Below are positions 32,418 through 45,737 of a stretch of 64,000 nucleotides of DNA, one piece after another. The first letter of the stretch is position 1. Each line of letters starts with the position of its first letter. The notes below the pieces were generated by a model. It was not told the DNA's origin. It saw only the letters and a list, made by a program, of their open reading frames with translations, and did not search any database. The stretch is from a virus, in the IMG/VR virus record IMGVR_UViG_3300022911_000003, positions 4,814-68,813 of that record. One strand, 5' to 3'. Both the position numbers and the translations under genes were made by a program.

Positions 32418-32897
32418 AAAAAGACATCGTGTCGTAAAATAATTGCATCAAACGCTTTTCAGGGACTCAAGCCATATCAGGCAAGAAGGGAAGCGCGTTA
32501 CATGTGCCAGACATAGGCGCGGGAGCGTGCCACGCGGCGCGCCAGCCGGGGGCGGACGCTATAGAGCACCAGGTCAACGCCATGGCGCCTCCAGTCAACC
32601 GCTTTCGGCACAGACCCGCCGCACGGCCCATAAACTTCGCAGGACAACCCAGAACCGCGTCGACCGCCTCAACGCGGCCCGACGATCCGCCAAAGCCCGT
32701 CAGCGCTAAACCTGCCAGCCTCACGCGCCCCAACTCGCGCAAGACTCAAACCAGACCCAAAGTGAGCGCATCTACACAGACACATGATAGAGCGCTATCA
32801 CATACCAAAGGGCGCGCAGCGCCCGCAGGGTGATGACGAAACAAAGAAACAGGATTACATAACAAACAGCAGGCAAAAGCACCGGAGCAATAAAGCC

Positions 32898-33356
32898 ATG
32901 ACATTTCACGCCAATATAACGCCCGACGAAAAAAGCGACATCGTAACAAGAGCATGTGAACACGTCGCAAATGGACAAAGCCTCCGCGCCTTCTGCCGTA
33001 AGGAAAAACTGCCGTATTCAAGCGTTTATGACTGGTGTTCGGAGGCAACGCTTAACGGTCAATCCCCGCTCGTGCGGGCGCGCCAAGTCGGAACGCATTC
33101 CCTTGCGGATCAATGCTTAGAAGAGGCTGAGTCGATGACTTCGGAGAACTACCAGGCCAAAAAGGCAAAGGTTGACGCAATTCTCAGATTGGCCGGCAAA
33201 TGGAACAAGGCAGACTACGGCGAAGGCCCTCTTGTGGCCATTGATAACCGGCAGATGCCTGATTGGTCCATGCTGTCTGATGATGCCAGGGAGCAGGTGA
33301 AGGCGGCCCTTGCGGCGAAGGTTCAAGCCCTGCCGGCGCCTGATCGGTCATCCTGA
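32898..33356 (+). CDS. terS: Terminase small subunit (HTH type)
   Basis: ANGQSLRAFCRKEKLPYSSVYDW...RARQVG...LADQC...KVDAILRLAGKWNKADYG. Confidence 0.8.
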   Translation: MTFHANITPDEKSDIVTRACEHVANGQSLRAFCRKEKLPYSSVYDWCSEATLNGQSPLVRARQVGTHSLADQCLEEAESMTSENYQAKKAKVDAILRLAGKWNKADYGEGPLVAIDNRQMPDWSMLSDDAREQVKAALAAKVQALPAPDRSS

Positions 33357-39850: not shown

Positions 39851-39933
39851 CCCGTGTCGCGCTACCCTTCCCCCCAGGTCGAGGCACGACACATCGGGCC
39901 GCTGGTTCTCCGGATCAGCGGTCCTTTTCTTTT
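39851..39933 (+). ncRNA. Candidate small RNA with C-rich loop and its own terminator
   Basis: TTGACC-16-CAATAC upstream (39819); stem TGTCG/CGACA with loop CTTCCCCCCA; terminator GGGCCGCTGGT/ATCAGCGGTCC plus T-tract. Confidence 0.45.
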
Positions 39934-40098
39934 GCCATCCCCTGTGGATTGGGGGTAGGATTGAGACTGTGCGAAGCGGATACAGGAGTCCGTCGCAATG
40001 ACCTGCTGAATGCCTCTTTTTGTGCGTCCTTTGGATCGACACGGATTTGGGGCAACTGAAGACAGCGACCGCACACTCCCCATCTAGGGGATAGGAGA

Positions 40099-40333
40099 TT
40101 GCCTTCGGGCTATGATACCTGGCCGATCCGCAAGGGTCATAAATCCGTGACAGTTCCGCAAGGGGTCAGCGCGGTATAGAGAAGCGCCGATGGACAGCGC
40201 TCTGCCCCCGTCGAAAGGCGGGGGAGCAAGTTTTGCCTTCGGGCTAGTGAGGTTTGACCCAACGCATATGCGACAGGCCAGCACCTGTTTCTCTGCTGGG
40301 AGAGAAGGGTCAAGCATTTTTGCCTTCGGGCTA
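40099..40333 (+). repeat. Three exact copies of TTGCCTTCGGGCTA (40099, 40233, 40320)
   Basis: Read directly from the sequence; each forms a GCC-UUCG-GGC hairpin. Confidence 0.95.
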
Positions 40334-40338
40334 TGAGA

Positions 40339-40436
40339 TTGAGCGGCGGCGTTGACGGAAACGCGGCAAAACTAGATGCGTGGGCTACCCGGCGAGTGCT
40401 AGGTCCACTAGCCGGTATCCAATCCGGCCCGCTCAA
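40339..40436 (+). ncRNA. tRNA-like element with expanded anticodon region
   Basis: TTGAGCGG/CCGCTCAA acceptor stem, GCGT/ACGC D-arm, GCCGG-TATCCAAT-CCGGC T-arm. Confidence 0.6.
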
Positions 40437-40460
40437 TACCTCCCCGCTCTGTCGGGAATG

Positions 40461-40524
40461 AAGTGGATCGACTAGCGGTAAGTCACCCGTATAGGGCTTC
40501 GTAGGTTCAAATCCTGCTCCACTC
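40461..40524 (+). ncRNA. tRNA-like element with truncated anticodon arm
   Basis: AGTGGA/TCCACT stem, GACT-AGCGGTA-AGTC D-arm, CCC-GTATA-GGG mini arm, GTAGG-TTCAAAT-CCTGC T-arm; no encoded CCA. Confidence 0.7.
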
Positions 40525-40530
40525 GTGAAT

Positions 40531-40566
40531 CGCCAGGGGCTTCGGTCTCTGGCGGTTTTCTTTTTA
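40531..40566 (+). terminator. Intrinsic terminator closing the RNA locus
   Basis: CGCCAGGGGC-TTCG-GTCTCTGGCG followed by GTTTTCTTTTT. Confidence 0.85.
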
Positions 40567-43878: not shown

Positions 43879-44136
43879 ATGTCCGATAAGCAGAAAAAAT
43901 TTGTGAGGTGCGTCGATGTGCTGGACCGCAACCAGTACTACGACCAATGCACCAAGGAACCGACGGGACTGATTCATGACCCCGTTGTTCCGGGCCTGAC
44001 GTTGGGCCGTATCTATCTCGTGACGAGCGAGGCGCCTGACTATTTCCGAATCACCAATGACCTTGGCGAGAAGGACTCGGGCTATTTCAAGCACCGCTTC
44101 GAGGTCATGCGGGTCAATCCAGAGGTCGTGTCGTGA
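43879..44136 (+). CDS. Hypothetical protein
   Basis: GTGA overlap with terL. Confidence 0.55.
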   Translation: MSDKQKKFVRCVDVLDRNQYYDQCTKEPTGLIHDPVVPGLTLGRIYLVTSEAPDYFRITNDLGEKDSGYFKHRFEVMRVNPEVVS

Positions 44137-45737
44137 GAACTGATCCGCGCCAGGGCAAGACCCAAGAAGAGGCGATGCTCGAATCGCTTCTCGCATGGGA
44201 GCAAAACCGCGCCCAAGAGAAGATGCTCATTGAGGCACAGCGCGAGGGGGAGCGAATCAGGGAAGAGTGCCACCGTTTGATCGGCTTCATCGGCCACGCT
44301 TGGAGAATACTTGAGCCAGTAGCTGAGTTGAAAATAGGGTGGGCCATTGATGCGATGGCTGAGCACCTGGAGGCTATCCACTATCGCTACATCAAAAACC
44401 TCCTGACCAACGTTCCACCCGGGATGCTTAAGTCATTGATGACAAACGTGTTTTTTCCAGCTTGGGAATGGGGTCCAAAGGATAGGTCAGATATGCGTTA
44501 TGTCTGCACCAGTTACGGCCTGGACCTTACGAACCGTGATGGAGAGAAGTTTCTCAGACTGATCACGTCGGAATGGTATCAGACGCTTTGGACCCCGGTT
44601 AACGTAACAAAATTTGCGGTCGATAATATTGGGAACTCAAACACTGGCGTCAGAATCGGGGTTCCGTGGTCAAAGAGTATGGGGCGCCGGGGCGGCAGGT
44701 TTATGTTCGATGACCCGCATGACCTGCTTAATGCCGAAGCCGATGACCAGCGCGCCACGACAGTTCGTCTGTTCAAGGAAGGCGCATCGTCCCGACTGAA
44801 TGACCCTGAGACCGATTCGATGATCGGAATCATGCAGCGCCTAAATCAGGGTGACATCTCGGGTTACATTCTGGAAAACGACCCGAGTTACACCCACCTC
44901 ATGTTGCCGCAGGAGTTCGAGCCGGAGCGGAAGTGCATCACGTATCGCAAGGACGGCACCAAACTGTTCGAGGACCCGAGAACAAAGGAAGGTGAGCTCG
45001 TCTTCCCCGAACGTTTCAACAGGGCCTATGTCGATTTCCGGAAGAGCGCCAAAGGTATTGGTGCCTACGCCTACGCCGCTCAAGATCAACAGCGCCCCAC
45101 ACCTCGCGGCGGCGGCTTGTTCCAGAAGACATGGTTCGATAAGAGGACGGTTCAGCGCGTCACTGACCTGCCGGCCAAGATCGTTCGCACGGTCCGGGCA
45201 TGGGACTTGGCCGCGACCGACCTGAAAGCGCTGCAAACCACAGGCGCCAGATCGGCCGGGGTCAAGATGGCGAAACTGGCCAATGACGAATACGCCATCC
45301 TGGGATGCGTGGCTCGGGGGTACGGCCCGGCCAAGGTCAAGGCCCTGATGAAGACCACAGCCAAGGCCGACGGCAAGGGTGTGGAAATTTCTGCGCCGCA
45401 AGATCCGGCTCAGGCTGGCAAGGTGCAGCGTGCCGACATCATCAAGTCGCTGGCCGGCTTCACCGTCAGCGTCACGACAGAATCGGGTGACAAGGCTGCG
45501 CGTTTCACGCCATTTTCGGTCCAGTGCGAAGAAGGAAATGTCTGGATCGTCGACGGGCCTTGGGTTCAGGAATTCTTCGAAGAACTTGAGCCGTTTCCAA
45601 ATGGGAAGCGCAAGGACATCGGCGATGCCTGCTCCCGCGCCTTCGGTCACCTGACCACGAAGCGCCAGCGCAGACCTGTCTCAACAGCAGGCACGGTGGC
45701 GATTCTGCTCCAAGCCGAGGCCGACGCGGAAGCCTGA
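44133..45737 (+). CDS. terL: Terminase large subunit
   Basis: NVPPGMLKS (Walker A), MFDDPHD (Walker B), IMQRLN, RAWDLAAT and FPNGKRKDIGDA nuclease motifs. Confidence 0.92.
   Translation: MRTDPRQGKTQEEAMLESLLAWEQNRAQEKMLIEAQREGERIREECHRLIGFIGHAWRILEPVAELKIGWAIDAMAEHLEAIHYRYIKNLLTNVPPGMLKSLMTNVFFPAWEWGPKDRSDMRYVCTSYGLDLTNRDGEKFLRLITSEWYQTLWTPVNVTKFAVDNIGNSNTGVRIGVPWSKSMGRRGGRFMFDDPHDLLNAEADDQRATTVRLFKEGASSRLNDPETDSMIGIMQRLNQGDISGYILENDPSYTHLMLPQEFEPERKCITYRKDGTKLFEDPRTKEGELVFPERFNRAYVDFRKSAKGIGAYAYAAQDQQRPTPRGGGLFQKTWFDKRTVQRVTDLPAKIVRTVRAWDLAATDLKALQTTGARSAGVKMAKLANDEYAILGCVARGYGPAKVKALMKTTAKADGKGVEISAPQDPAQAGKVQRADIIKSLAGFTVSVTTESGDKAARFTPFSVQCEEGNVWIVDGPWVQEFFEELEPFPNGKRKDIGDACSRAFGHLTTKRQRRPVSTAGTVAILLQAEADAEA

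What the first reader, a model, noticed from the sequence alone, without database searches (positions are those of the whole stretch)
40339..40436. tRNA mimic with intact elbow but an expanded, non-decoding anticodon domain
An 8-bp acceptor-like stem, 2-nt linker, 4-bp D-arm with GG in the loop and 5-bp T-arm (8-nt loop TATCCAAT) are in canonical order. A 46-nt insert replaces the anticodon and variable arms, and there is no CCA. It resembles tRNA-like domains of Y RNAs or tmRNA more than a decoding tRNA. It could be an RNase P/Z processing signal or a decoy.
Basis: partly seen in the sequence, partly recalled or inferred. Interest (0 to 1): 0.6.

Follow-up and report, generated by a model that had tools for sequence, protein, structure and literature searches.

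The report
Phage tRNA frame carrying swappable RNA
This 96-base phage gene encodes an RNA that keeps the upper half and elbow of a tRNA but has an unrelated folded insert where the anticodon arm should be; it belongs to a large phage RNA family, absent from Rfam and the papers searched, whose inserts are exchanged between phages and whose job is untested.

Summary
Observation confirmed, with corrections: the D stem is 5 bp (6-nt loop), and the acceptor is 7 bp plus 2 extra pairs. The element (40340-40435, +) lies in a roughly 600-nt promoter-to-terminator non-coding unit of a 71-kb alphaproteobacterial-type tailed phage. Motif searches from the T-arm side and, separately, from the D-arm side recover the same family: 186 distinct members, none in shuffled DNA, five in cultured phage records, unannotated. 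The frame covaries strongly and has its own signature (C8, 14:21 pair, A48, 8-nt T loop). Inserts (42-220 nt) are mostly unrelated, keep structure when shared, and turn over between frames. There is no anticodon arm, encoded CCA, synthetase identity, Ro60 or partner gene, and no excision restores a tRNA. It is not a Y RNA, tmRNA or intron-containing tRNA. Best reading (about 50%): a natural tRNA scaffold that host RNase P and 3' trimming release as a stable small RNA, with the insert as cargo. Closest known: T5 RNA2 (same frame logic, weak model score). Expression and function are untested. This scan reported the family before on other phages.

The parts
40340..40346 (+). Acceptor stem 5' strand (positions 1-7); extended by 40338-40339 pairing with 40436-40437
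   Evidence: covariation
40347..40348 (+). Linker C8-G9 (family signature; not U8)
   Evidence: position 9 covaries with pair 12:23
40349..40364 (+). D arm: 5-bp stem with U14-A21 as fifth pair, 6-nt loop with G18-G19
40365..40410 (+). 46-nt insert replacing anticodon and variable arms; two predicted hairpins (40366-40379, 40380-40408); last base is the conserved A48; no relative found
40411..40428 (+). T arm: 5-bp stem, 8-nt loop (canonical loop plus one extra 5' base)
40429..40437 (+). Acceptor stem 3' strand, position 73 and one more paired base; no encoded CCA
39932..39961 (+). Sigma-70-like promoter of the non-coding unit
   Evidence: consensus match only
40320..40336 (+). Third copy of a 17-nt UUCG-hairpin repeat (others at 40099 and 40233), ending 3 nt before the predicted 5' end of the element
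40461..40524 (+). Neighbouring mini-tRNA body with a truncated anticodon arm, 25 nt downstream
40527..40558 (+). Intrinsic terminator closing the unit

Best explanation
The element is a natural tRNA scaffold. SHOWN by sequence comparison: a conserved, covarying acceptor/D/T frame surrounds an insert that is mostly unique, keeps its own structure when shared, and turns over between frames. INFERRED: the unit is transcribed from the 39932 promoter. The frame folds into the tRNA L-shaped upper half (G18/G19 to U55/C56). Host RNase P measures 12 bp from the elbow and cuts at 40339/40340, or one base upstream because -1 pairs with 73. tRNA 3'-trimming enzymes finish the other end, giving a stable RNA of about 97 nt that is not aminoacylated and does not decode. 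The insert is the cargo displayed where the anticodon arm would be and carries a phage-specific activity, most likely binding a protein rather than antisense pairing. The near-invariant D and T arms also give about 20-nt homology arms through which cargoes can be swapped by recombination.
For: Frame: 96.6% of cells paired and covariation score 0.557 vs 0.133 shuffled; the ten top-ranked mutual-information pairs are all acceptor, D or T pairs; 127 of 143 D-arm hits have a T arm plus complementary acceptor vs 14% background. Core geometry: base 9 covaries with pair 12:23, Fisher p 4e-8; G18, G19, U55, C56, A58 are at least 97% conserved among members of standard loop length. Transcription and tRNA-type handling: promoter right before the element in 17/183 vs 0.7% background; 16/114 within 500 nt of a tRNA, all same strand, several only 4-17 nt away. 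Cargo: 173 insert clusters among 186 members; double compensatory changes in 22 of 69 changed pairs of shared inserts vs 8% control; L296 and L360 share frame and flanks (98% over 124 nt downstream) but have unrelated inserts, while the L360 insert is 88% identical to one in another frame in L458. RNase P reads the elbow and a 12-bp acceptor/T helix and processes phage RNAs such as C4 (PMC11143913).
Against: No activity is known for any insert, and this insert has no relative. Inserts are only weakly more structured than shuffles on average (median z -0.57). The frame is more sequence-invariant than RNase P needs, which hints at another reader. The 8-nt T loop, C8 and acceptor stems often extended past 1:72 (34% by 3 bp or more) could impair normal tRNA processing. 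Related sequences inflate the covariation statistics, and my descriptor required pairing.
Confidence: 0.5

Rival explanations
1. Elbow decoy: the frame itself is the active part and titrates a host or defence protein that docks on the tRNA elbow or T stem (a tRNA-targeting toxin or nuclease, RNase P, a modification enzyme). The insert only needs to be folded, larger than an anticodon arm, and uncleavable.
For: T stem, 7:66 pair, D loop and A48 are conserved in sequence while acceptor pairs 1-6 vary freely. Anticodon-less tRNA bodies recur beside the element (40461) and inside five inserts.
Against: Characterised anti-phage tRNases such as AriB read the anticodon loop (PMC10802454), which is absent here. 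Shared inserts are conserved across different frames with compensatory changes, more than a filler needs. No paper found on such decoys.
Confidence: 0.25
2. Cis processing signal (mascRNA-like): the tRNA-like fold exists so that RNase P cuts the longer transcript and defines the ends of neighbouring RNAs, here the upstream modules of the 600-nt unit. The released piece is a by-product.
For: Here it sits inside a multi-module unit, next to a second tRNA-like body and before the terminator.
Against: 17 members start directly at their own promoter with nothing upstream to process. Neighbours are not conserved. A processing signal does not need a 42-220-nt structured insert.
Confidence: 0.1
3. DNA-level element: the constant D and T arms are recombination or integration sites for short cassettes, and the RNA fold is secondary.
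For: Insert turnover within identical flanks; one copy lies between an ISL3 transposase and an integrase in Caulobacter phage DMCA.
Against: Strand bias with tRNA genes, promoters at the 5' end and tRNA-type tertiary covariation point to RNA. No recombinase is conserved nearby.
Confidence: 0.07
4. A decayed or intron-containing tRNA gene.
For: tRNA-derived architecture; some members sit in tRNA clusters.
Against: None of 297 in-silico excisions gives an ARAGORN tRNA or a 5-bp/7-nt anticodon arm; with introns allowed only 1 of 186 members is called. Strong compensatory conservation in unrelated phages excludes decay. CCA at 74-76 in 4/186 and G3:U70 in 2/186.
Confidence: 0.03

Closest known systems
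Phage T5 RNA2 (NC_005859 32959-33083, annotated 'tRNA-like stable RNA with unknown functions')
   Same: 8-bp acceptor with G7:C66, C8-G9 linker, 5-bp D stem, D loop starting GA and ending GGA, A48, similar T stem, large insert instead of an anticodon arm; phage-encoded in a tRNA region.
   Different: Canonical 7-nt T loop, longer D loop; only 13 bits (E 0.29) with the family model vs 52-71 bits for typical members not used to build it; its insert is conserved across about 400 T5-like records, whereas inserts here are mostly unique. An analogue or distant relative; homology not established.
Phage T4 RNAC and RNAD (species 1 and 2 RNAs)
   Same: Small stable RNAs of unknown function in a phage tRNA cluster; RNAC ends in a T arm.
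   Different: No hit with the family model even with filters off; no D arm of this type in the predicted folds.
YrlA bacterial and phage Y RNAs (Rfam RF02553; PMC4201824)
   Same: Non-decoding RNA with D arm, T arm and acceptor-like stem.
   Different: YrlA is permuted (acceptor is a stem-loop between T and D), has a Ro60-binding motif and lies next to Ro60; none of these holds here.
tRNA-Sec and allo-tRNAs (PMC5389517, PMC7609411)
   Same: Extended D stem with a 14:21 pair, position 8 freed from pairing with 14, frequent 8-bp acceptor.
   Different: Those keep an anticodon arm with a 7-nt loop and have synthetase identity; allo-tRNAs have 8/4 or 9/3 branches, while the T stem here is 5 bp.
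Engineered tRNA-scaffold expression of recombinant RNA (PMC3753655 seen in search only; details from my own knowledge)
   Same: Cargo RNA placed in the anticodon region of a tRNA body to be processed and protected by host enzymes.
   Different: Artificial, keeps a canonical tRNA body with CCA and part of the anticodon stem.

Membership tests
Canonical tRNA (RF00005) | 5-bp anticodon stem with 7-nt loop after the D arm | tested here: not met
   Absent in the query; only 6 of 114 members show a loose match, unrelated to each other
Canonical tRNA (RF00005) | U8, A14, 7-nt T loop | tested here: not met
   C8, paired 14:21, 8-nt T loop in 114 of 127 D-anchored members
Canonical tRNA (RF00005) | 7/5 acceptor-T branch with G18 G19 and U55 C56 A58 | tested here: met
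   (sequence and covariation; 3D fold not tested)
Intron-containing tRNA | Removal of one segment restores a tRNA | tested here: not met
   0 of 297 excisions
YrlA Y RNA | Encoded next to a Ro60/TROVE gene | tested here: not met
   No TROVE in this genome (78% complete) or four other carriers, two of them at least 90% complete proviruses and one an isolate genome
YrlA Y RNA | Ro60-binding GNCGAAN0-1G motif and permuted T-acceptor-D order | tested here: not met
   Motif 34/186 vs 28 in shuffles; order is D-insert-T; no Rfam hit
tmRNA | G3:U70, CCA end, stemless D loop, tag reading frame | tested here: not met
   G3:U70 2/186, CCA 4/186, 5-bp D stem; ARAGORN finds no tmRNA
T5 RNA2-type phage stable RNA | tRNA frame with C8-G9, 5-bp D stem and insert in place of the anticodon arm | tested here: met
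T5 RNA2-type phage stable RNA | Detectable sequence homology | tested here: inconclusive
   13 and 11.8 bits, E 0.29 and 0.058; best score in the T5 region but not significant
T5 RNA2-type phage stable RNA | Accumulates as a discrete stable RNA in infected cells | not testable with these tools
Antisense phage RNAs processed by RNase P (P1 C4 type) | Loops complementary to a target in the phage's own genome | tested here: not met
   Longest match to own locus 10.2 vs 10.0 nt shuffled; query insert 11 nt in 71 kb, within the shuffle range. Loci are partial and host targets were not tested.

The most novel reading that the evidence does not exclude
Phages of many hosts share a universal RNA expression cassette: a dedicated, non-decoding tRNA frame whose constant arms direct processing and also act as recombination arms for a large exchangeable pool of structured cargo RNAs, each with its own activity in host takeover or counter-defence. 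That would be an RNA counterpart of accessory protein genes.
Probability: 0.3. Interest if true: 0.85.

Novelty: new variant of a known kind. Interest (0 to 1): 0.62.

Why it matters
Phage tRNA-like stable RNAs (T4 RNAC/D, T5 RNA1/2) are still listed as of unknown function and looked like oddities of a few coliphages. This family shows the design is widespread, has its own conserved elbow variant, and carries exchangeable structured inserts. It is missed by ARAGORN and Rfam. Cultured carriers (Caulobacter phage DMCA, Komagataeibacter phiKX1/2, Pseudanabaena Pan3, Alcaligenes QDWS595) make frame-versus-cargo experiments possible. If the cargo reading holds, the inserts are a large library of natural functional RNAs, and the frame is a ready-made scaffold for RNA expression.

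Tried and rejected
Rfam at gathering and E-value thresholds on the window and 33 member loci: no hit on the element. BLAST of the whole 700-nt unit against phage records: no relative. The 17-nt repeat has only two matches in IMG/VR, in near-identical non-array contexts, and does not accompany other members. The upstream 99-aa protein has no relative in viral contigs. No conserved partner protein: the largest neighbour cluster covers 8 of 114 loci and looks like a terminase by my reading. Antisense targets: none above shuffles. Shared insert motifs: mainly a GAAA-tetraloop word. Host housekeeping gene: among 401 genomes of the class of an Acetobacteraceae carrier, 46 had a loose T-arm match, and of 30 loci examined only the seed was a member. 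E. coli genomes: no BLAST match with one member (low sensitivity). A CsrA/RsmA-sponge reading of the D loop was considered from memory and dropped, because the GGA sits one register off the known hexaloop and matches the tRNA G18-G19 position. Literature: nine full-text searches, including the exact motifs, found no description. The supplements of PMC10690425 (10,006 candidate viral RNAs) and PMC5389517 were not held, so an unnamed listing there cannot be excluded.

Full report
Setting. The window lies in a 70,956-bp linear virus record, 78% complete. Terminase large subunit (44133) and portal (45802) hit PHROGs, and the nearest cultured terminases are from Rhizobium and Erythrobacter phages at 39-43% identity, so it is probably an alphaproteobacterial tailed phage. 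The finding sits in a gene-free stretch with a promoter-like site at 39932-39961 and a terminator at 40527-40558. Three copies of a 17-nt UUCG-hairpin repeat (40099, 40233, 40320) separate folded modules and occur nowhere else in the genome at this identity. The element follows the third repeat by 3 nt and precedes a mini-tRNA body (40461-40524) by 25 nt.

Observation. The cloverleaf-like fold is there. Two corrections: the D stem has five pairs and a 6-nt loop, and the acceptor helix is 7 bp plus two extra pairs. Core stems have pair probabilities of 0.95-1.0 within the whole unit; the insert hairpins have 0.5-0.84. ARAGORN, with or without introns, and Rfam do not recognise it.

A family. 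An exact search for the 16-nt T arm in IMG/VR gave 60 hits, many inside the same architecture. A search for the D arm alone returned elements ending in a variant of that T arm. A structural descriptor found 114 distinct members in the first set and 186 in 183 loci in the final set, with none in 3.3 and 2.2 Mb of shuffled DNA. Anchoring on the D arm only, 127 of 143 hits have a downstream T arm and complementary acceptor, against 14% for random windows; the T loop is 8 nt in 114, 9 nt in 9 and 7 nt in 3. Profiles built without the query and its T-loop subtype rank its two blocks first in its genome. Cultured carriers are Caulobacter phage DMCA, Pseudanabaena phage Pan3, Komagataeibacter phiKX1/2 and Alcaligenes phage QDWS595; none annotates it. 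It is rare in bacterial genomes in the one sample examined, so it is not a host housekeeping RNA.

The frame. On a 36-sequence alignment 96.6% of cells pair, 13 of 19 pairs change on both sides, and the covariation score is 0.557 against 0.133 for shuffles and at most 0.13 for slid partners. These numbers lean high because members were chosen with a pairing descriptor and are related. Acceptor pairs 1-6 vary widely. G7:C66, C8, the D loop, A48, the T stem and U55-C56-x-A58 are nearly fixed. Pair 14:21 is G-C in 155, U-A in 30 (the query) and C-G in 1. Base 9 tracks pair 12:23 as in the tRNA core triple (p 4e-8, not corrected for kinship). Position -1 pairs with 73 in 81% against 43% by shuffling. 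CCA at 74-76 occurs in 4 of 186 and G3:U70 in 2, and the discriminator is not conserved. So the elbow is under selection, while aminoacylation and decoding are not.

It is an RNA gene on this strand. Promoter-like sites lie just before the element in 17 of 183 members against 0.7% in control windows. Sixteen of 114 members lie within 500 nt of a tRNA, all on the same strand, several 4-17 nt away, and one sits inside an 11-tRNA array. No read data could be obtained.

The insert. Lengths run 42-220 nt, median about 85. The 186 inserts form 173 clusters; the query's has no relative. They have no conserved anticodon arm, no common motif beyond a GAAA-tetraloop word, and no excess complementarity to their own loci. 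Where two phages share an insert, 22 of 69 changed stem pairs change on both sides and stay paired, against 8% in controls, so shared inserts are under structural selection. Exchange is visible. L296 and L360 have the same acceptor and flanks but unrelated inserts, while the L360 insert recurs at 88% in a different frame in L458. Five inserts are themselves tRNA bodies without a working anticodon arm, like the mini-tRNA next to the query. No protein gene is consistently adjacent.

Mechanism. The best-supported reading (0.5) is a natural tRNA scaffold. The frame would recruit RNase P, which reads the elbow and measures 12 bp to the cut site and is known to process non-tRNA phage RNAs (PMC11143913). 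Together with 3' trimming this would release and protect a cargo RNA displayed at the anticodon position. The frame, the insert variability and the exchange are shown by comparison. Transcription, processing, the 3D fold and any cargo activity are inferred. The main rival (0.25) is that the elbow itself is a decoy: the frame is more invariant in sequence than processing alone requires, and no insert is tRNA-sized. Against it, the anti-phage tRNase read about here recognises the anticodon loop (PMC10802454), and shared inserts are conserved. A pure cis processing signal (0.1), a DNA-level cassette (0.07) and a decayed or intron-containing tRNA (0.03) fit worse.

Comparison with known systems. 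It fails the defining tests for tRNA, YrlA Y RNA and tmRNA. It works most like the phage tRNA-like stable RNAs. T5 RNA2 shares the C8-G9 linker, 5-bp D stem, A48 and insert, and is the best-scoring feature of the T5 tRNA region under the family model. Its score is only 13 bits and its T loop is canonical, so homology is unproven. A T5 strain with a deletion spanning the RNA2 coordinates still infects laboratory E. coli, which fits an accessory role. T4 RNAC/D do not match and remain of unknown function (PMC9697503). I found no paper describing this family, but could not check two supplements.

Earlier scan notes. Several follow-ups on other phages report what appears to be the same family. I found the family before reading them, then took from them the frame-and-cargo wording and the T5 RNA2 lead, and tested both here. 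They are not independent support.

Verdict. A real RNA gene, a member of a widespread and apparently undescribed phage family; a new variant of a known kind (phage tRNA-like stable RNAs); interest 0.62.

Noticed in passing
window 40099-40115, 40233-40249, 40320-40336: A 17-nt UUCG-hairpin repeat precedes three modules of the non-coding unit and is unique to this spot in the genome; possibly a processing or folding spacer. It is not found with other family members.
   Followed up: partly
window 40461-40524: Mini-tRNA with canonical D and T loops but a 3-bp/5-nt anticodon arm; similar anticodon-less bodies occur nested inside family inserts.
   Followed up: partly
L343:3751-3883, L371:3772-3904, L394:2494-2662, L414, L460: Inserts that are themselves degenerate tRNA bodies (a tRNA-like fold inside a tRNA-like frame).
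   Followed up: partly
L018:12962-13052, L015, L017, L006, L047, L054: A subfamily with the same T arm and acceptor but U8-G9 and a long, conserved extended D arm; weak scores (17-25 bits) with the family model. Possibly a separate RNA family.
   Followed up: no
L030:9070-9110: A bare minihelix (acceptor plus this T arm, no D arm or insert) shortly after the stop of an apparent gene.
   Followed up: no
L509:5960-6084 (T5 RNA2); L510:590-690 (Acinetobacter phage AB1I1T): The T5 RNA2 insert contains a second T-arm-like hairpin, and a related insert plus T arm occurs after the tRNA cluster of an Acinetobacter phage in a different body.
   Followed up: partly
L063:754-780 (T4 rnaD 5' hairpin) and L031 just downstream of its family member: The same short hairpin sequence appears in T4 rnaD and next to a family member in an unrelated phage contig.
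   Followed up: no
L269:2790-4073: A family member embedded in an 11-gene tRNA array in an Acetobacteraceae MAG.
   Followed up: no
L028, L298, L306, L374, L387, L458: Loci with two family members, mostly in tandem, with different inserts.
   Followed up: partly
window 32784-33356 and 44133-45737: Terminase small-subunit-like gene (PF20901) lies about 11 kb upstream of the large subunit, with accessory genes and the RNA unit between them.
   Followed up: no
L297 insert vs L337:1636-1691: Part of one insert recurs (84% over 56 nt) outside any recognised frame, suggesting inserts can exist as free modules.
   Followed up: no
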